From positions 1 to 36,695 of IMG/VR virus record IMGVR_UViG_2531839665_000016: a stretch of 36,695 nucleotides of DNA. One strand, 5' to 3'. The stretch comes from a virus (Duplodnaviria; Heunggongvirae; Uroviricota; Caudoviricetes). The translations under genes were made by a program, and so were the position numbers. The notes under the pieces are model-generated. The model searched no databases. It was not told the origin of the DNA and saw nothing but the letters and a program-made list of their open reading frames with translations. Positions within the stretch are counted from its first letter, which is position 1, and each line of letters opens with the position of its first letter. Below, piece by piece: positions 4,211 to 36,695 of this stretch.

Positions 4211-5577
4211 TGCACTGGCACCTTCAGAGGGATCACCGGCACAAAGCCGGGATGCGTAATAGCATTACGCCGGATAATGTCCGCGTCACGCGTCGCGTTA
4301 TCAAACCAGGTCGCCGCCAGCACCAGCGCGGGTAAAACCTCATCCGGTGTGCGCTGAATGATCCGTGCAGACTGTTCAAGGCGCGTGTTGATATCCGCAT
4401 TCAGATCTGCTTTCACCCGGCGCAGCGCCAGAAACAGCGCATCACTGGTTGTACGGGACAACTCCTTATCAATTGCCGTATTCAGTGTGTCGCGAATGTC
4501 AGTCAGTTCTTCCCACGTCGGCAGATCAACCGTGTTTTTCATCGCCGGTGCATTGTTCAGTGCCGGATGCGTGACGGAAGGCCAGCCGGTGCTCTGTGCA
4601 GCTGTTGTTGCCTGCCCCACTGCGGCATTCTGCATCACCGCGGAAGTTGTTGGCGCAGGCAATCGGGTGACGGCATACGCCGCTTCGCTGATTGCGGTCG
4701 TACGAAGGGTGCTGGCAACCACGTTACGCTGCTGCGTCGCCGTAGCGGTGGTTTTACTGTCCGTTTTCCAGACGCCGCGCGGTTGCAGATCACTGCCGAG
4801 GCTGACACCGGAAAGCGTTTTGATCATGGTGACCAGATCGCTGGCGTTACCATAAAGGCGTTTCCCGGTACGCCACATTTTCTGCACCTGCTCAACGAAA
4901 TTTTTGCCTGACGATGGCGGCGGCAGAAGTACCGAGATATCCCCCTGCAACAGCCTGGCGGCATCCGATACGGCAGAATCCACCACTTTCATCGCATCAG
5001 AAACATACCCCAGCATTATGCTGGCATTACCAATAACGTCGTTCTGCACGAAATCCGCCACGCCATCGATACTGAAACCGCTGAAGCTGTCACTGATGCA
5101 GTCATCCAGTGCAGAACAGGATGACATCAGCGTCTGCGCCGTCGCCGCACCTGAAGTGGGGTAAGAGAGTTCTCCCGCTTCGACAAACTTCAGGTCAAAG
5201 CGGACAATACGCCCTTCACTCTTCGATGTGCTGACCCGAACCTCTCCGTCAACACAGACTTTCAGCTCACCGTAAGTCGGATGGACAAGCGTGCCGGGAC
5301 CGGGTTTATTCAGCGCGTCAATCAGGCGATCGCGCTGGTCAAAGCAGTCATCTCCCACCACATAAGCCGTGATGGACGGGCGGAAAGTGATTTTCCCCAG
5401 GTCTTCGGTATAGGGTTTGTCGCGGTTCGGGTATTCGTGCGTTTCCACACGACGACCGGTTCCCGTACTTTCTTCTTCAACCTTAAACGGCACACCGCGA
5501 AATGACGCGTCCTGAAGTCTGTCTTTCCACGTCATATAAACTCCGTACATAAAAAATCCCACCGGAGTGGGACTCAT
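4207..5577 (-). CDS. DNA circulation protein (Mu gpN-like)
   Basis: 456 aa; N-terminus (WKDRLQDASFRGVPFKVEEES...THEYPNRDKPYTEDLG) resembles Mu N-family proteins; lies directly downstream of the tape measure gene. Confidence 0.6.
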   Translation of the reverse strand: MSPTPVGFFMYGVYMTWKDRLQDASFRGVPFKVEEESTGTGRRVETHEYPNRDKPYTEDLGKITFRPSITAYVVGDDCFDQRDRLIDALNKPGPGTLVHPTYGELKVCVDGEVRVSTSKSEGRIVRFDLKFVEAGELSYPTSGAATAQTLMSSCSALDDCISDSFSGFSIDGVADFVQNDVIGNASIMLGYVSDAMKVVDSAVSDAARLLQGDISVLLPPPSSGKNFVEQVQKMWRTGKRLYGNASDLVTMIKTLSGVSLGSDLQPRGVWKTDSKTTATATQQRNVVASTLRTTAISEAAYAVTRLPAPTTSAVMQNAAVGQATTAAQSTGWPSVTHPALNNAPAMKNTVDLPTWEELTDIRDTLNTAIDKELSRTTSDALFLALRRVKADLNADINTRLEQSARIIQRTPDEVLPALVLAATWFDNATRDADIIRRNAITHPGFVPVIPLKVPVQ

Positions 5578-11627: not shown

Positions 11628-11828
11628 TCAGCCCTCTTTACTGGTCGTGGCTTTTTTCTCTTTTGTCGCTTTACTGCTTTTTGCACTGGTTCCGCGCTCT
11701 GCTAACCCGGCCTGAAGTGCAATCTCCTGCACCCGGGCAGGAAGCGCCCCGTCGTCATACTCACCGGCCCGAATGACCTCAACACGCATACCGTCCGGTG
11801 ACCATTTCAGATCTTGTTTCAGGATCAT
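11628..11828 (-). CDS. Small hypothetical head-module protein
   Basis: 66 aa ORF packed between the capsid and connector genes; Lys/Thr/Ser-rich C-terminus. Confidence 0.4.
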   Translation of the reverse strand: MILKQDLKWSPDGMRVEVIRAGEYDDGALPARVQEIALQAGLAERGTSAKSSKATKEKKATTSKEG

Positions 11829-11877
11829 GATTCTTCACCCGTCAAAACAGGGGGCGCGGTTCCGCGCCCCTGAATGA

Positions 11878-13083
11878 TTACGCCGCTGCAATCTTCAGCA
11901 GTTTGATGGCCTGCGAATCGACCAGCATCCCGCCGGTGCGCTTGGTGGTATAAAAACCGACAAACGGTTTATTGGTGTACGGGTCACGCAGAATGCGGGT
12001 GCCGATACGGTCAACGATGGTGTAACCCCGTTTGAAGTTACCAAATGCAATGGCTTTCGCATCAGCGGCGATATCCGGCATCTGTTCGTTTTCAGCGATA
12101 CCGTAACCCGCCAGAGAGGACGGCTGCCCCAGTTCCAGCCCCGGACGCCACAGATAGTTACCCTCGCTGTCTTTAAGCAGACGGATGGCAAACAGGCTGT
12201 TGTTGTTCATCATGAACTTCGCGCCAGTGCGGTGTGCCTTACGCAGCGTGTAAATCAGTTTGATAATGGCGTCTGCGGTCACCGCGGTCGCTTCGCCGGA
12301 TACAATATGCTGAAGTTTGCCGAACGCCCGGACCTTGTCGGTTTCATCAGTGGATTCATACGCCAGGAACCCTTTCGGCTTCTTGGTGCCATCGCCTGAG
12401 GTAAAGGCAATTTCTTCCTGTTCGGCAAATTCGGTTGCCAGCTCGCTGTTGATCCATGCCTCCACGTTGAAGAAGGCATCGTCCAGCATTTTCTGGGTAG
12501 CCTGCGGGTTGCCGTAGATTTCCCCCATGAGAGGTTCAATCAGCTCCAGTCTGGAGGTGGCAGTCTGGGATCGCGCGTCAGTCTCGCCAACCCATCCGGA
12601 AGCCGTACCGCCCAGATTCACCAGTTTTTTGTAGTCGGAGCCGCCAACGGTGATCACCGTGGCTTCCTGACGCATCACCACTTCATCTTTCAGCAGGTTA
12701 AGAATGTTGCGATCCAGTTCTTCCGGCACGGCGTAGCCACCGTCTTCATCGGTGCCCACCTGCAATGCCTTACGCTCCAGATCGCGCAGACCGTCTTCAC
12801 GGCCTTTACGCAGGAAGCCCACAAACGCCTCTTTATGCTCGGTGGCCAGTTTATTTTGCGCTCCACCTGCCGGACGTTTCAGCTCAATCAGCTCTTTTTC
12901 AAGGTCGCTTTTGAGATTTTCCAGCTCGCTGAGTTTCCCGTTCAGGGTTTCCACCTGCCCGGCAAGCTTGCCTTTTTCCTGCTCAATCGCATCCACGCGC
13001 TTGTCGTTCTTTGCTTTGAAGTCGTCAAACTTCTGCTGCAGCTCCTGCGCGACCTGTTCGACATCTTTAATATCAACCGCCAT
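11878..13083 (-). CDS. Major capsid protein, HK97 family
   Basis: 401 aa; N-terminal coiled-coil delta-like region followed by an HK97-fold capsid region; follows the prohead protease. Confidence 0.85.
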   Translation of the reverse strand: MAVDIKDVEQVAQELQQKFDDFKAKNDKRVDAIEQEKGKLAGQVETLNGKLSELENLKSDLEKELIELKRPAGGAQNKLATEHKEAFVGFLRKGREDGLRDLERKALQVGTDEDGGYAVPEELDRNILNLLKDEVVMRQEATVITVGGSDYKKLVNLGGTASGWVGETDARSQTATSRLELIEPLMGEIYGNPQATQKMLDDAFFNVEAWINSELATEFAEQEEIAFTSGDGTKKPKGFLAYESTDETDKVRAFGKLQHIVSGEATAVTADAIIKLIYTLRKAHRTGAKFMMNNNSLFAIRLLKDSEGNYLWRPGLELGQPSSLAGYGIAENEQMPDIAADAKAIAFGNFKRGYTIVDRIGTRILRDPYTNKPFVGFYTTKRTGGMLVDSQAIKLLKIAAA

Positions 13084-30008: not shown

Positions 30009-30287
30009 GGAAGCAGACGGAAGTAAGCATGCGCTTTGTTCAAATTTGCAGACAAATATATTTGCGTCAACACCAGCACTGTTAGCAATGGAAAAAGTTT
30101 GATCAAGGATTTGTTGGCAGTTCATTGTGCTTTTGAGGATATATCCCTCTGGAATCAGTCTGCAGCAGCTATCGTCAGACTCTTTGATTGTTTTCTGGTA
30201 CAGAAAGTTAAGCATTAATTCTTCAAATTTTTTGGTCTGTTCGGCTGTTGCTTCAAACAGACGAACGTGAACATAAAACTGGTTCAT
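29946..30287 (-). CDS. Hypothetical protein encoded antisense within the early-left operon
   Basis: 113 aa from MNQFYV...; AAGGAAA Shine-Dalgarno 4-6 nt upstream of ATG 30287; AT-rich; 3' end overlaps the preceding plus-strand gene by about 60 nt. Confidence 0.4.
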   Translation of the reverse strand: MNQFYVHVRLFEATAEQTKKFEELMLNFLYQKTIKESDDSCCRLIPEGYILKSTMNCQQILDQTFSIANSAGVDANIFVCKFEQSACLLPSASLVGNDFVHHDLTPKPIKLDS

Positions 30288-30566
30288 TAGGTTTCCTTGC
30301 TGGCTGTGTGAGAACTCCAGCATACCACCGAGCCTGAAGTGGTGAAAAGACAGGCAATAGTTTCATTGCTGTGTGTAGTCCTGGCGGTACCAGTTTGTAC
30401 CCTTGCTTCCGGCTGGTACCGCTCTTTTTACAAAACAGAGAAGAGCATCACCGGACGACGGGCTCATAACCCAATCCATCCGGGCGGCTGCCACCGCAGG
30501 TGTTCTTCTCTGTTTTGTGGAGAAACCAACCGACCTTGCAGGGTCGATATGATGAGGAGCAGCAAA

Positions 30567-32524: not shown

Positions 32525-32785
32525 ATGAGGTTATCAAAAATGCTTCAAATGCTGACACTTGAAGAATGGGCTTCTGAAAAATACAGAAGTAATCCTCCAA
32601 GTGTGTCCACATTGCGTCGTTATGCTAAGCAGAATTTATTTTGTCCACCGGCCATGAAACAAGGCCGGTTATGGCGAGTGCGTGAGGACGCCGAGTTAGT
32701 TGGAGAGCTGGTAACACCAGTAATTAAGAAAAATGACTCATTACTTTTGCAACGGATTTTGAGTGATGGCAGCCAGACCGCGTAA
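32525..32785 (+). CDS. xis: Excisionase (Xis)
   Basis: 86 aa; MLTLEEWA...KQGRLWRV excisionase-like motif; overlaps the int start. Alternative start at 32540. Confidence 0.65.
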   Translation: MRLSKMLQMLTLEEWASEKYRSNPPSVSTLRRYAKQNLFCPPAMKQGRLWRVREDAELVGELVTPVIKKNDSLLLQRILSDGSQTA

Positions 32786-33893
32786 AAATAATGTTTCGGT
32801 CCCTAACTTATATCCGCTTTATAGTAGGAAAGTAAATAAAGTCTATTGGCGGTATAAGCATCCAGTAACAGGGAAATTTCATGCGCTAGGAACGAACGAA
32901 ACCGAAGCCATCGCTATTGCCACTGAAGCCAATACGCGACTGGCTGAACAAAGAACTCGGCAGATTCTGGCCATCAGTGACAGGATAGCAACCAGCAAAG
33001 GGAAAGCAATCACAACGTCAACCTGGTTAGATCGCTACCAAGCGATCCAGGATGACCGACTGAAAAGTGGTGATATAAGACTCAACACTTATAAGCAGAA
33101 AGCCAAACCAGTATCCTTACTTAGGGAACGAGTAGGAATGAAGTTGATCTCAGCCGTTGATGTCAGAGATATAGCACAATTGCTTGACGAGTATATCGCT
33201 GCCGGGCAGCCGAGAATGGCGCAAGTCGTAAGGTCTGTATTGATCGATGTATTTAAGGAAGCACAGCATTATGGCGAAGTTCCGCCAGGGTATAACCCTG
33301 CTCTTGCGACGAAGCAACCCAGACGGAAAATCACCCGTCAACGCCTCAGCCTCGAAGAATGGAAAAAAATCTTCGATATCGCAGATGCCAGTCATCGTTA
33401 CATGGGAAATGCCATGCTCCTAGCATTGGTCACTGGACAGCGTTTGGGGGACATATCTAAAATGAAATTCAGCGATATTTGGGATGACCATCTACATGTC
33501 GAACAGGAAAAGACTGGAAGCAAAATCGCAATTCCTCTTTCTCTTCGCCTCAATACGATTAACTGGAGTTTACGCGATATAATAGCCCGCTGCCGTGACT
33601 ATGCAGTCAGTCCATACCTAGTGCATTTTTTCCGTTCAACTTCACAAGCAGAACGTGGGGCACAGGTTAAATCCAATACATTGACGATGAACTTTAGCAA
33701 AGCGCGAGACTTGGCCGGAATTGATTGGGGTGATGGAACTCCAGCAACTTTCCATGAACAAAGATCTTTATCTGAGCGCCTTTATAGGGAACAAGGGATT
33801 GATACGCAAAAACTACTCGGACATAAATCTCCTAATCAGACAGCTAGATATCATGATGATCGTGGAAAAGATTGGGTAACTCTAGCAATTTGA
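32763..33893 (+). CDS. int: Tyrosine integrase, lambda Int family
   Basis: 376 aa; C-terminal LLGHKSPNQTARYHDDRG resembles the lambda Int catalytic Tyr region (GHKSDTMASQYRDDRG). Confidence 0.85.
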   Translation: MMAARPRKNNVSVPNLYPLYSRKVNKVYWRYKHPVTGKFHALGTNETEAIAIATEANTRLAEQRTRQILAISDRIATSKGKAITTSTWLDRYQAIQDDRLKSGDIRLNTYKQKAKPVSLLRERVGMKLISAVDVRDIAQLLDEYIAAGQPRMAQVVRSVLIDVFKEAQHYGEVPPGYNPALATKQPRRKITRQRLSLEEWKKIFDIADASHRYMGNAMLLALVTGQRLGDISKMKFSDIWDDHLHVEQEKTGSKIAIPLSLRLNTINWSLRDIIARCRDYAVSPYLVHFFRSTSQAERGAQVKSNTLTMNFSKARDLAGIDWGDGTPATFHEQRSLSERLYREQGIDTQKLLGHKSPNQTARYHDDRGKDWVTLAI

Positions 33894-34027: not shown

Positions 34028-34993
34028 TCATTTCTTAAATTTAAGAATTTCTTTTAAGGCTTCTACTATATTTTTATCCCCATCCATGCTAATTTTCTCC
34101 TTCTCAAGAGAAACCGTAGTCTGCCCTTTTTCAAGAACAAAATTACGTTCTGTAGCCATGAGATTTTTAATAACCTCACCCATTAAGTCTTCGTTTCTAA
34201 TGCCCTTAAGAAACTTTATCGCCAAAACTTTGGAATCGATATTGGTAAGCTCATTTTGAAAATACTTGACCTCATCAAAACCATTTTTGTACAACTTCAA
34301 GAAGAAATAAGCAAATAGTTCAACGACAATTACAAATGATAATTTGGGGGCCATGTGAAGTATATATTCAAGCTTATCATTTGTGTTAATAGCATTTGTA
34401 ACTGAATATCCAAGGTAAAGTATCCCACAAAAAGCAATAAATGCACCTAAAACCAGATTAACCCCACCACGTCTATTTAATCTATTTATTTCATTTTCTA
34501 AACGATATACAATATCATTATAGTGTTTACTAATTTCTATTTGATTTCTAAACGAATTTATATCATTTTTCAAACTTAAATCTGCAGCCAAGAGAGTATT
34601 GCCTACAATCTTTTTTTTAGCATTATCGATCAACTCTTGCCTTTCTTTTGATGTGAGTAAAACACCATTTAAATCTTTCGAATCATTTGTAACTAGTTGA
34701 TTAAACTCTTGCTTTAAGGAGTCTAATTCTGACTTTAACTCTTCATATGAGTTAACATTCTTGTTTTTACTTTCACCTATTCCTTTATTAACATAATTTA
34801 ATAAAAATGCTGCCATAAAAGTTAAAATCAGAGTTGCAATAAAGAAACTATTTTCATCTTGAAGTATTTTAGCAACAGTGGAAAAATAACTTACGAGAAG
34901 AGGCTGAGCATTATAAAGCCCCATTCCTAACAAAACTGCAATTGCCGTACCTAAAACGAACCTTACTTCTTGTCTTTTTAGTAACCTATTCAT
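34028..34993 (-). CDS. Membrane protein with 4 predicted TM helices (2+2) and central coiled coil; candidate effector
   Basis: 321 aa; hydrophobic helices VRFVLGTAIAVLLGMGLY, FFIATLILTFMAAFLLNYV, VNLVLGAFIAFCGILYLGY, LSFVIVVELFAYFFLKLY; AT-rich. Confidence 0.55.
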   Translation of the reverse strand: MNRLLKRQEVRFVLGTAIAVLLGMGLYNAQPLLVSYFSTVAKILQDENSFFIATLILTFMAAFLLNYVNKGIGESKNKNVNSYEELKSELDSLKQEFNQLVTNDSKDLNGVLLTSKERQELIDNAKKKIVGNTLLAADLSLKNDINSFRNQIEISKHYNDIVYRLENEINRLNRRGGVNLVLGAFIAFCGILYLGYSVTNAINTNDKLEYILHMAPKLSFVIVVELFAYFFLKLYKNGFDEVKYFQNELTNIDSKVLAIKFLKGIRNEDLMGEVIKNLMATERNFVLEKGQTTVSLEKEKISMDGDKNIVEALKEILKFKK

Positions 34994-35555
34994 TATGACA
35001 CCATATGTTATTATTTAACGTTTTATTAAATTCAAAATACTGCCCGAGATTTTAATACTCATAACAAAATAAGAATTAATATACAAAATTTTTCATACTA
35101 CAAGCAAGGCTTTGATAAATTGTTTTGATAACGATTTGATAACCGTTAGAAATCTAATAATAAAAACGGGAGCCATCAGACTTCCGTTTTTGATAACCCG
35201 GAGCCTAGATTTGGCTACCCCAGCAGGAAGATGCAACGTCCACGATTGTCACAAATCAGGCTGGCTCGAGGCAGAATGGCGACTGTGAGGGAGAAACGAA
35301 AGTTCACACTCGTTCTCACTGCTGATGGGGGGTTCACTAACAATCTCAAGCACTAATTAATGGACGAAACTCTACACAAAGCCCCATTTTGTAGGAAAAC
35401 TGGTAACGGATTAGTAATACTACCCGGCCAGAACATGACCGACCGGGTAAAAAAATATCCTGACGCTACTAAGCCTTTAAGATTTGACTAACCTAGTGCT
35501 TACATTATAGAGAACTGCTTATGCCTTCTAAATTATAGAGTAAAAATACTCACCA

Positions 35556-36695
35556 CTAAAATACAACTTGCTTCCTTAGTAAATCACCTCTAGCATTTGA
35601 GTAATATTCAGTCGAATTGCCAGTAACTTCCCGGAGTACTTCTGTTACAAGGTTATTTAGTATTCCCGTAAGTTTAAGAAACTCTCCATATGAATTAGGT
35701 TTCTCAAATATCTTTCTGGTACCGTTCGGCACATCGAGCTGCATTGCAGCATCATGATCCTGGGCTAAGTGATTTAGCCAGCGGTGAGTCTCAACAAGTA
35801 CAGCAAGTTCATAGTATGTACTATGACGGAGATTATTAGCATCTGCATGGTACATTAGTGAAGCAATATCATAGCTGCTTAGATCAATACTCGAACCTTC
35901 GTCTCCACTGTCTGCTTTCAGGGTTTTGAGCATGCGAATTGATTTTCTTAATCCACCATTGCATTGATCGCATTTGTCTTTGATACGTTGCATGTGGAGG
36001 AACGGTTCATTGTAGATACGCTCTCGTTTGTTTTTATCAATTATGGTAACTCCACGATGTTCTTCTTTTTTTGTGAGTTGGTACTCTTTCGTATCCCACC
36101 ATATGCCTGGCACTACATCAACTTCTCTTTGAAGACTCCCCCCCGTTATTCTCAAGGACTTGGCGTTATTATCGTCAACCTGAGCAGCAGGAAATGTCAT
36201 TTTTAGAGCATCTCGAGCTGCACGCCTAAGTTCAATGATGACGTCTCGGCCATCTTTCTCAGCTGCACTATAGCTGCCAACTCCACCGCTATCATACATA
36301 AGCATCTGAGTATCAATAATTAAAAGATCTACATCACTGAAACCTTTGATATGGATATCTAGGGGAACAGAACCTTGTACCCGAAAATCTAGGTTTAGGT
36401 CTAATTTCTTAGTCAGCTGATTTTCAATACGATACGCGGTTTCGAATGAGATCTCTGTATAGCGGGGGTCAACTGGTTGCATCGCACCAATGACATACCG
36501 GATAGCTGAATCGTCTCTTCCTCTAGACTCCCAACTTTCATTAAGCTCAAGAGCATCTTCAAGCAATGCATATTTTTCAAGGCCATCATATCTTTGATTA
36601 CTCATTGATTCTGTGGCTACTCGCAACTGATCATATGTCCCTTTACGACGTGACTTCATGCGTTCAATACGCGAACTATATGATGAATTAGACAT
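35556..36695 (-). CDS. cGAS/DncV-like nucleotidyltransferase (CD-NTase-like); start coincides with window edge
   Basis: 379 aa; pol-beta NTase motifs by my residue count: G108-S109 (QGSVPLD), D121-x-D123 (SDVDLLI), D193 in EVDVVPG (h-D-h-h-P). This spacing matches what I recall for DncV-type cyclases. AT-rich. The ATG is at the last bases of the window, so the N-terminus may be incomplete. Confidence 0.55.
   Translation of the reverse strand: MSNSSYSSRIERMKSRRKGTYDQLRVATESMSNQRYDGLEKYALLEDALELNESWESRGRDDSAIRYVIGAMQPVDPRYTEISFETAYRIENQLTKKLDLNLDFRVQGSVPLDIHIKGFSDVDLLIIDTQMLMYDSGGVGSYSAAEKDGRDVIIELRRAARDALKMTFPAAQVDDNNAKSLRITGGSLQREVDVVPGIWWDTKEYQLTKKEEHRGVTIIDKNKRERIYNEPFLHMQRIKDKCDQCNGGLRKSIRMLKTLKADSGDEGSSIDLSSYDIASLMYHADANNLRHSTYYELAVLVETHRWLNHLAQDHDAAMQLDVPNGTRKIFEKPNSYGEFLKLTGILNNLVTEVLREVTGNSTEYYSNARGDLLRKQVVF

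What the first reader, a model, noticed from the sequence alone, without database searches (positions are those of the whole stretch)
34994..35555. Unexplained 560-bp non-coding gap between the NTase and 4-TM genes, containing a GC-richer patch and hairpins
Seen in sequence: no ORF of 60 aa or more on either strand. There is a hairpin with A/T flanks (AAAAACGG-N14-CCGTTTTT, about 35161-35192) that could be a bidirectional terminator, and a GC-richer segment (about 35210-35340) embedded in AT-rich DNA. The gap could hold a small ORF (I found a 41-codon plus-strand ORF from ATG 35231), a regulatory RNA, a promoter for the effector, or a gene remnant.
Basis: seen in the sequence. Interest (0 to 1): 0.35.

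Follow-up and report, generated by a model that had tools for sequence, protein, structure and literature searches.

The report
Recombination scar between stacked prophage modules
The 560-bp gap is the joint between two cargo modules stacked at the icd attachment site of an e14-like prophage, made of a displaced copy of the phage's attachment-site arm with its terminator hairpin plus 343 bp of orphan filler DNA, so it is ordinary prophage mosaicism and not a new gene or RNA.

Summary
The gap 34994-35555 has no ORF of 60 aa or more. It has a hairpin at 35161-35192 and a patch of 51-55% GC in DNA of 20-38% GC.

The window is an e14-like lambdoid prophage integrated in E. coli icd. The gap splits into three parts:
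- **34994-35107** is the conserved upstream region of the 321-aa membrane-protein gene.
- **35108-35211** is a second, displaced copy of the element that normally sits directly after the icd stop codon in e14-like prophages. It has three or four TTTGATAA(C) direct repeats, probably integrase arm-type sites, and a bidirectional terminator-like hairpin. It is homologous to the Salmonella sRNA locus STnc150 (40.7 bits, below Rfam's threshold of 60).
- **35212-35555** is a 343-bp orphan that holds the GC patch. I found it only in this prophage lineage. It has no Rfam match, no protein homolog, no icd or integrase similarity, and no unusual folding stability.

Homology to single-module Enterobacter prophages stops exactly where the icd stop codon should be. 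Homology to other CBASS cassettes starts exactly at the NTase stop. The true CBASS effector is Cap15, which lies beyond the window end. The 321-aa gene is independent cargo. A related E. coli locus keeps an icd 3' fragment and an integrase remnant at the same position, which supports tandem integration followed by deletion. Interest is low.

The parts
34994..35107 (-). Upstream region (promoter and 5' UTR) of the 321-aa membrane-protein gene
   Evidence: It is collinear at 74-82% identity with the segment between the arm repeats and the ATG of the orthologous gene in Enterobacter and metagenome e14-like loci L012, L014, L016 and L018 (alignment A2). No transcription data exist.
35043..35198 (+). 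STnc150-like segment (sub-threshold Rfam RF01402 match), pointing toward icd as in Salmonella
   Evidence: It scores 40.7 bits against a gathering score of 60, E = 4.9e-07; the best-aligned part is the 3' end and terminator. The same sub-threshold hit (34-43 bits) appears in every e14-like att-proximal element tested. In Salmonella, STnc150 lies between icdA and STM1239 and converges on icdA (PMC2515195, PMC10964419).
35111..35144 (+). Three direct TTTGATAA(C) repeats (starts 35111, 35124, 35135), likely integrase arm-type sites of the attP P' arm; a fourth copy lies at 35189-35197
   Evidence: The motif is clustered here. The repeats are invariant across E. coli, Klebsiella and Enterobacter copies (A1 and A3). 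The motif also occurs on the P arm of attR in CFSAN061772 and of attP in pKpnB3_1. The prophage integrase has the lambda Arm DNA-binding domain, PF09003 at 2.7e-37. Binding itself is inferred.
35161..35192 (.). Bidirectional terminator-like hairpin (12-bp stem, 8-nt loop, A-run before, T-run after)
   Evidence: Fold energies are -12.8 and -13.2 kcal/mol on the two strands. In 8 homologous copies 92% of cells are paired and 3 of 8 pairs carry compensatory changes, and slid controls fall to 25-53% paired. In single-module relatives it sits 17-25 nt after the icd stop. The simple terminator scan did not flag it.
35193..35211 (.). Last ~19 nt of the conserved att-arm block; homology to single-module loci ends at 35211/35212, where the icd stop codon would begin
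   Evidence: Alignments A1 and A2. Blast end points fall at 35211 for L004 and L016.
35212..35357 (.). GC-richer patch (51-55% GC), first part of the orphan filler
   Evidence: It is present only in this prophage lineage. It has no Rfam hit, no icd similarity, no integrase similarity and no protein homolog in the two most open frames. Fold z-scores are -0.77 and -0.69. It does not resemble ERIC. One Logan contig (L030) breaks at 35358.
35358..35555 (-). Remainder of the orphan: the 3' flank of the CD-NTase gene, probably the CBASS 3' UTR
   Evidence: It has no homolog downstream of related CBASS cassettes. It holds a promoter-like TTTAGA-17-TATAAT at 35532 to 35504 on the - strand, which is no more than chance gives (1 found, 2.7 expected).
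35420..35450 (-). GC-rich 12-bp hairpin about 106 nt after the NTase stop, markedly more stable on the NTase sense strand
   Evidence: Energy is -19.6 kcal/mol on the - strand and -10.8 on the + strand. On the - strand a U7 run precedes the stem and no U-tract follows, so it is not a canonical terminator.
35556..36695 (-). CD-NTase (CBASS cyclase); the right-hand neighbour of the gap, not part of it
   Evidence: PADLOC Cyclase 6.2e-137. Homologs are always paired with an upstream Cap15 gene. Cassette homology begins at 35555/35556.
34028..34993 (-). 321-aa membrane and coiled-coil protein; independent cargo, the left-hand neighbour of the gap
   Evidence: It matches no Pfam, NCBIfam or PADLOC family. 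In Enterobacter prophages the ortholog sits alone between icd and int.

Best explanation
The gap is a composite junction left by the stacking of two cargo modules at the icd attachment site of an e14-like prophage.

**Shown**
- The inner module runs intE, 321-aa gene, its upstream region, TTTGATAA(C) repeats, hairpin. It is collinear with single-module Enterobacter prophages, in which the hairpin lies 17-25 nt after the icd stop.
- In this window that homology ends at 35211/35212, exactly where icd should start.
- The outer module runs icd 3' end, a second diverged K-12-type hairpin and repeat copy, ~135 bp, then Cap15 and the CD-NTase. Its homology to other two-gene CBASS cassettes ends exactly at the NTase stop (35555/35556).
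- The 343 bp in between, including the GC patch, has no detectable relative anywhere outside this prophage lineage.

**Inferred**
- Two icd-targeting elements integrated in tandem, and a deletion removed most of the outer one. It removed the outer element's integrase and the inner element's icd 3' fragment. The orphan is leftover DNA of the lost element or filler.
- On the - strand the CBASS mRNA runs through the orphan as a 3' UTR. It passes a stable hairpin at 35450-35420 and stops at the 35192-35161 hairpin. This insulates the 321-aa gene, which uses its own conserved promoter.
- On the + strand the same hairpin would terminate an STnc150-like small RNA of about 90 nt.
- The TTTGATAA(C) repeats are integrase arm-type sites. 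They now lie 2.3 kb from the crossover core, so they are redundant or act as decoys.
For: **Context**
- The locus is intE-xisE prophage DNA next to icd.
- The same order, icd / Cap15 / NTase / 562-bp gap / 321-aa gene / int, was found in all 11 further loci examined (10, 1).

**Inner module**
- It is collinear at 74-82% identity with L012, L014, L015, L018, L019 and L016, ending at 35188-35211.
- In the free phage-plasmid pKpnB3_1 the order is int / repeats / hairpin / icd 3' fragment / core / P arm.

**Outer module**
- Copy 1 of the repeats and hairpin lies directly after icd and is only 79% identical to copy 2. Copy 1 is 81-89% identical to the K-12 and phage 689R6 versions.

**CBASS cassette**
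- Cap15 plus the NTase occur as a two-gene unit in unrelated contexts in Yersinia, Citrobacter, Serratia and a plasmid. None has the 321-aa gene or the gap sequence downstream.

**Precedent for stacking with deletion**
- E. coli S1-SRL-01-C (L026) has icd / hairpin and arm / cargo / integrase C-terminal remnant (70% aa identity to IntE residues 282-370) / decayed icd 3' fragment (82.7%) / hairpin and arm / cargo / intE.
- L016 carries two icd 3' fragments.

**Hairpin and repeats**
- Hairpin conservation and covariation come, and motif clustering.
- The motif occurs on both att arms, and the integrase has an arm-binding domain.
- The element is identified with STnc150, and by PMC2515195 and PMC10964419.
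Against: - No intact outer phage carrying CBASS plus the orphan was found, so the origin of the orphan is not shown.
- The deletion end point falling within a few nt of the icd stop codon is a coincidence under this model.
- The orphan contains no recognisable P-arm, core, icd or integrase remnant.
- The + frame from 35150 has only 3 stops in 150 codons. That could hint at a decayed gene I could not identify.
- The composite is nearly invariant in all copies, with 2 variable sites in the gap among 10 loci. Neutrality or constraint therefore cannot be judged.
- Transcription, termination and integrase binding are all untested.
- The repeat also fits the IHF consensus WATCAANNNNTTR on the opposite strand (read directly from the sequence; established consensus), so it may bind IHF instead of, or as well as, Int.
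Confidence: 0.72

Rival explanations
1. The 343-bp orphan, and the GC patch in particular, encodes a lineage-specific functional RNA. This could be a 3'-UTR-derived or independently transcribed small RNA, or a cis-regulatory structure that controls the CBASS operon or the 321-aa gene.
For: - The hairpin at 35420-35450 is much more stable on the CBASS sense strand (-19.6 vs -10.8 kcal/mol).
- A promoter-like site on the - strand (35532 to 35504) is followed about 340 nt later by the 35192-35161 hairpin.
- The gap has the same length in every copy seen.
Against: - No Rfam match even at E <= 10.
- Fold z-scores of -0.77 and -0.69.
- The sequence is absent downstream of all related CBASS cassettes and upstream of all related 321-aa genes.
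- The promoter-like count is below the chance expectation.
- All copies are near-identical, so constant length carries no information.
Confidence: 0.08
2. The orphan is the decayed remnant of a protein-coding gene, either cargo of the lost outer prophage or a small ORF that is still coding (the 41-aa or 43-aa + strand ORFs).
For: - One + frame is open from 35150 to 35491 apart from a single stop, and the 41-aa and 43-aa ORFs share that frame.
- In L026 the equivalent position holds real gene remnants, an int fragment and an icd 3' fragment.
Against: - HMMER against 1.84 billion representative proteins gave only an artefact, a cadherin-repeat protein matched 14 times weakly.
- The most open - frame has no hit.
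- tblastn against plasmids found nothing.
- There is no similarity to IDH or IntE.
- ATG 35231 has its AGGA only 2 nt upstream and ATG 35360 has no Shine-Dalgarno sequence.
- No gene was called in the gap at the 11 other full loci. The 43-aa ORF was called at the cut end of one short contig, L030.
- About a 9% chance per frame of one or no stops in 100 codons (my estimate), so the open frame is not significant.
Confidence: 0.15
3. The GC patch is a miniature mobile element (ERIC/IRU-like or another MITE), or a captured chromosomal fragment, inserted next to the hairpin.
For: - The patch is bounded by an imperfect inverted repeat, CCCCAGCAG ... CTGCTGATGGGG.
- Its right end resembles the ERIC terminus TGGGGATTCAC (my memory of the consensus).
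- A short-read contig breaks at 35358.
Against: - It is single-copy in every genome that has it.
- No other element in the viral collection shares these termini.
- Its alignment score to the ERIC consensus is at shuffle level, 15 against a mean of 15.7.
- It does not fold into a long palindrome.
- No target-site duplication can be assessed.
Confidence: 0.04

Closest known systems
attP P' arm / attL of phage e14 and other icd-targeting lambdoid prophages
   Same: - The TTTGATAA(C) triple repeat followed by a hairpin is the same as found right after icd in K-12 e14, phage vB_EcoM-689R6, Enterobacter prophages and the attP of pKpnB3_1.
- The integrase is a lambda-type IntE with an arm-binding domain.
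   Different: - This copy is 2.3 kb from icd and has no icd 3' fragment or crossover core beside it. A second, diverged copy holds the normal position.
- Arm-site function is inferred and has not been demonstrated for this phage family.
Salmonella sRNA STnc150 (Rfam RF01402)
   Same: - The sequence block and terminator are shared.
- Orientation relative to icd and to the downstream gene is the same.
   Different: - The score is 40.7 bits against a threshold of 60.
- About 110 model positions are missing.
- The copy is displaced from icd.
- Expression is unknown here.
Tandem or decayed prophage arrays at one att site (for example E. coli S1-SRL-01-C at icd, and PICI tandems described in PMC10111431)
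   Same: Two att-proximal modules lie in series with different cargo, and the outer element is largely deleted.
   Different: Here the internal att remnant (icd 3' fragment and int remnant) is absent, replaced by 343 bp of unidentifiable DNA.
Type I CBASS with Cap15 effector
   Same: The right-hand neighbour is the CD-NTase of a Cap15 plus CD-NTase pair.
   Different: The gap and the 321-aa gene are not part of that system in any homologous locus.

Membership tests
Rfam RF01402 STnc150 | Covariance-model score at or above the curated gathering score (60 bits) | tested here: not met
   The score is 40.7 bits, E = 4.9e-07, in the 751-nt search. There was no hit at the gathering threshold.
Rfam RF01402 STnc150 | Location next to icd, transcribed toward icd, ending in a terminator hairpin | tested here: inconclusive
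   Orientation and terminator match. This copy, however, is 2.3 kb from icd, and copy 1 holds the canonical place.
Rfam RF01402 STnc150 | Expressed as a stable RNA of about 90 nt | not testable with these tools
   No transcript data are available. The promoter scan found no + strand site.
Lambda-type attP arm (integrase arm-type sites) | Integrase with an N-terminal arm-type DNA-binding domain | tested here: met
   PF09003 Arm-DNA-bind_1 at 2.7e-37 in the IntE protein encoded at 32763-33893.
Lambda-type attP arm (integrase arm-type sites) | Short repeated motif present on both arms flanking the crossover core | tested here: met
   The P' arm has three repeats in all relatives. The P arm carries GTTTTGATAAC in attR of CFSAN061772 and in attP of pKpnB3_1.
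Lambda-type attP arm (integrase arm-type sites) | Arm lies beside a crossover core (here, the icd 3' fragment) | tested here: not met
   There is no icd similarity at 35212-35555, so copy 2 is an orphaned arm.
Lambda-type attP arm (integrase arm-type sites) | Binding by the integrase | not testable with these tools
   This needs EMSA or footprinting. The motif also fits the IHF consensus on the other strand.
Intrinsic (rho-independent) terminator | Stable stem-loop followed by a U-tract | tested here: inconclusive
   The stem has 12 bp, with -12.8 and -13.2 kcal/mol and T-runs on both strands, and it shows covariation. The consensus scan reported 0 terminators.
CBASS operon component (effector, regulator or associated RNA) | Conserved association with the CD-NTase across homologous loci | tested here: not met
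   Cap15 is the conserved partner. Neither the gap sequence nor the 321-aa gene accompanies the NTase in Yersinia, Citrobacter, Serratia, the plasmid or the metagenome loci.
icdC-type icd 3' pseudogene fragment | Nucleotide or protein similarity to the last ~165 nt of icd | tested here: not met
   tblastn with E. coli IDH gave a best E of 1.0. blastn with the icd 3' end hit only the arm repeats.
ERIC/IRU or other MITE | Multi-copy element with a conserved consensus and terminal inverted repeats | tested here: not met
   It is single-copy. Similarity to the ERIC consensus is at chance level (the consensus was taken from memory). No elements share its termini.

The most novel reading that the evidence does not exclude
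The 343-bp orphan, with its strand-asymmetric hairpin and GC patch, is a lineage-specific regulatory RNA or long structured 3' UTR that tunes the Cap15 CBASS operon or couples it to the neighbouring membrane-protein gene. Alternatively, the displaced STnc150-like copy is an expressed phage sRNA or an integrase decoy that modulates excision.
Probability: 0.07. Interest if true: 0.45.

Novelty: new member of a known kind. Interest (0 to 1): 0.15.

Why it matters
- **Annotation:** the 321-aa membrane protein should not be annotated as the CBASS effector. The CBASS unit is Cap15 plus the CD-NTase, and part of it lies outside the window.
- **Defence islands:** the icd attachment site of e14-like prophages gathers defence cargo as stacked modules, each led by a copy of the att arm and terminator. 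This gives a practical marker for delimiting cargo cassettes.
- **STnc150:** the Salmonella sRNA locus STnc150 is homologous to the att-proximal arm of icd-targeting prophages. This bears on how that sRNA is interpreted.
- **Limits:** none of this is surprising for prophage biology. The unexplained 343 bp has no feature that singles it out as functional.

Tried and rejected
**Searches that found nothing or were rejected**
- **Structured RNA in the GC patch:** Rfam at the gathering threshold and at E <= 10, a tRNA/tmRNA scan, and folding with shuffles on both strands all gave nothing.
- **icd 3' pseudogene:** tblastn and blastn were negative.
- **Integrase remnant:** tblastn with IntE was negative.
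- **Conserved CBASS 3' flank:** blastn and tblastx against six related cassettes were negative.
- **Decayed gene or small protein:**
  - The HMMER search of the representative library gave only a repeat artefact.
  - The word-indexed protein search of the - frame and tblastn against plasmids were negative.
  - The 41-aa ORF is not on record as a called gene. The 43-aa ORF appears only on a truncated copy of the same locus.
- **Wider distribution of the orphan:**
  - blastn at E <= 5 against E. coli genomes, phages and plasmids returned only the same three genomes.
  - Exact 21-24-mers in viral, metagenome and species-representative genome collections returned only the same prophage, plus one chance 21-mer in a Verrucomicrobia MAG that does not extend.
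- **MITE or ERIC:** rejected.
- **An 'empty site' or an intact outer phage:** none was recovered. Every locus carrying the same or a 99%-identical 321-aa protein has the same composite.

**Technical failures**
- The first genome-contig scan with the NTase protein found no relatives.
- RNAalifold on the raw alignment predicted only 3 pairs because of a one-column shift. I realigned the hairpin alone.

Full report
**1. The observation**

- No ORF that touches 34994-35555 reaches 60 aa. The longest are 58, 47, 44, 43, 41 and 34 aa, and the 41-codon ORF from ATG 35231 is there.
- AAAAACGG (35162-35169) and CCGTTTTT (35184-35191) form a 12-bp stem over 35161-35192. The energy is -12.8 kcal/mol on the + strand and -13.2 on the - strand, with A/T runs on both sides.
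- GC content reaches 0.51-0.55 at 35200-35349, against 0.20-0.38 to the left and 0.31 to the right.

**2. Genomic context**

The window is an e14-like lambdoid prophage integrated in icd of E. coli.
- The last 2.9 kb is identical in three of 5,426 complete E. coli genomes. There the order is xisE, intE, a 321-aa hypothetical gene, the gap, a nucleotidyltransferase, a Cap15-family gene, then icd.
- The protein encoded at 35556-36695(-) is a CBASS cyclase (PADLOC 6e-137).
- The Cap15 gene overlaps the cyclase start and lies just beyond the window end. It carries the Cap15 receptor and TM domains.
- Close homologs of the cyclase (73-80% identity) in Yersinia, Citrobacter, Serratia, a metagenome contig and an E. 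coli plasmid always follow a 208-aa Cap15 gene. Their wider contexts are unrelated, and none has the 321-aa gene downstream.
- The 321-aa protein matches no family. In Enterobacter prophages its orthologs (75-83% identity) sit alone between icd and int.

The two genes flanking the gap therefore belong to different cargo modules. The '4-TM effector' label is wrong.

**3. The left 220 bp (34994-35211)**

This stretch aligns collinearly with the roughly 210-bp icd to 321-aa intergenic region of the Enterobacter and metagenome loci. The order is gene start, conserved upstream region, TTTGATAA(C) repeats, hairpin, about 17 nt, then the icd stop codon (alignment A2).
- The same repeat-plus-hairpin block lies 30-40 bp after icd in K-12 e14, in phage vB_EcoM-689R6 and in other E. 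coli strains.
- In the circular phage-plasmid pKpnB3_1 it lies between int and an icd 3' fragment, so it belongs to the P' arm of attP.
- TTTGATAA occurs four times within 35111-35196 and only three times elsewhere in 36.7 kb. Shuffles give 1.5 in total.
- The motif also occurs on the P arm, both in attR of CFSAN061772 and in attP of pKpnB3_1.
- The integrase has the lambda arm-binding domain.

I infer that the repeats are arm-type integrase sites. Binding is untested, and on the other strand the motif also fits the IHF consensus.

The hairpin is kept as a structure across eight diverged copies. In these, 92% of cells are paired, three of eight pairs carry compensatory changes, and slid controls give 25-53% paired. 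This fits a role as the icd terminator.

Rfam places the block in STnc150 at sub-threshold scores: 40.7 bits here and 34-43 bits in every relative tested, against a threshold of 60. Salmonella STnc150 lies between icdA and STM1239, converges on icdA, gives an RNA of about 90 nt and binds ProQ (PMC2515195, PMC10964419). The orientation here is the same.

**4. The element is duplicated**

A second copy lies directly after icd, outside the window at L001 ~11820-11920.
- The two copies are only 79% identical.
- The icd-proximal copy is of the E. coli K-12 type, 81-89% identical to K-12 and phage 689R6.
- The gap copy is closer to the Klebsiella and Enterobacter type (80-82%).

Two lineages were therefore merged. 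This was not a recent duplication.

**5. The right 343 bp (35212-35555)**

Homology to single-module loci ends at 35211, where the icd stop should begin. Homology to other CBASS cassettes begins at 35555/35556, the NTase stop. The stretch in between, which holds the GC patch, has no relative that I could find.
- DNA searches of E. coli genomes, phages and plasmids at E <= 5 found only the same lineage.
- Exact-word scans of viral, metagenome and species-representative collections found only the same prophage and one chance 21-mer.
- There is no Rfam or tRNA match and no similarity to IDH or IntE.
- The two most open reading frames have no protein homolog. The single HMMER hit was an artefact of 14 weak matches to a cadherin-repeat protein.
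- The stretch does not fold better than shuffled sequence (z = -0.77 and -0.69).
- It does not resemble ERIC.

One feature stands out. A 12-bp GC-rich hairpin at 35420-35450 is far more stable on the NTase sense strand (-19.6 against -10.8 kcal/mol). It lacks a downstream U-tract.

**6. How the arrangement arose**

E. coli S1-SRL-01-C (L026) offers a precedent, with this order:
- icd
- hairpin and arm
- cargo
- a C-terminal integrase remnant
- a decayed icd 3' fragment
- a second hairpin and arm
- more cargo
- intE

That is what tandem integration of two icd-targeting elements would leave after most of the outer one is deleted. Metagenome contig L016 also carries two icd 3' fragments. Deletions across the internal att site of a tandem have been proposed as an explanation for elongated fis islands (PMC10111431).

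The window has the same architecture, except that the orphan stands where the icd fragment and int remnant would be. I infer the same history with a larger or different deletion. The source of the orphan remains unknown.

The composite is fixed in its lineage. All 11 further loci examined have the identical 562-bp gap, with two variable sites among ten loci. Constraint therefore cannot be measured.

**7. Likely function (inferred)**
- On the - strand, CBASS transcripts probably run through the orphan as a 3' UTR and end at the 35192-35161 hairpin.
- The 321-aa gene probably uses its own conserved promoter in 34994-35107.
- On the + strand, the hairpin could terminate an STnc150-like RNA.
- The displaced repeats are likely redundant integrase or IHF sites.

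**8. Verdict**

The gap is real and mostly explained as a prophage recombination joint. About 40% of it is a known, conserved att-arm and terminator element in an unusual position. The rest is unidentifiable filler. Novelty is low: it is a further example of module stacking at icd and an extra copy of the STnc150-like element. The residual chance that the orphan is a functional RNA is about 7%.

Noticed in passing
window 36695 and beyond (L001 10889-11515): The window ends exactly at the CD-NTase start codon, so the Cap15 effector gene that overlaps it by 8 nt is cut off. Both IMG/VR contigs with this prophage end at the same base. This looks like a prophage-boundary call that splits the CBASS operon.
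   Followed up: partly
window 34028-34993 (-): This 321-aa protein has N-terminal TM helices, a central coiled-coil-like region and further TM helices, and matches no Pfam, NCBIfam or PADLOC family. Orthologs are the icd-proximal cargo of e14-like prophages in Enterobacter, Kosakonia, Leclercia and E. coli, once beside a CAP12/PCTIR TIR gene (L012). It is a candidate single-gene defence or exclusion factor.
   Followed up: partly
L026 2501-3001 (E. coli S1-SRL-01-C) and L016 1924-2088 / 5010-5174: Other icd loci hold stacked att-proximal modules with internal icd 3' fragments and, in L026, an integrase remnant. The icd site seems to accumulate defence cargo in series.
   Followed up: partly
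L001 4410-4632 (+), about window 30209-30431: A sub-threshold Rfam match to the sRNA STnc100 (41.2 bits, threshold 47) lies inside the prophage. A partial second match is at the 5' end of L016.
   Followed up: no
Rfam RF01402 versus L004 3265-3337, L014 4808-4881, L016 2102-2249, L001 11701-11910: All att-proximal elements of icd-targeting prophages give sub-threshold STnc150 hits. The Salmonella 'core' sRNA STnc150 therefore appears to derive from, or coincide with, a prophage attP P' arm.
   Followed up: partly
L030 (Logan SRR13622707 contig), window 35358-37712: A short-read contig 99.87% identical to this locus breaks at 35358, the right edge of the GC patch, and about 11 nt before the icd stop. 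The first break is unexplained. It could reflect a repeat or a strain variant in that sample.
   Followed up: no
L031-L040, locus 2107-2271 (icd 3' end): Among ten hosts carrying the identical prophage joint, the icd sequence varies right up to the last ~165 nt while the prophage side is nearly invariant. This suggests recombination within icd, or spread of the prophage into different icd backgrounds.
   Followed up: no
window 35111-35144, - strand reading: The reverse complement of the TTTGATAAC repeats contains a match to the IHF consensus WATCAANNNNTTR (TATCAAATCGTTA). The repeats could therefore be IHF sites as well as, or instead of, integrase arm sites.
   Followed up: no
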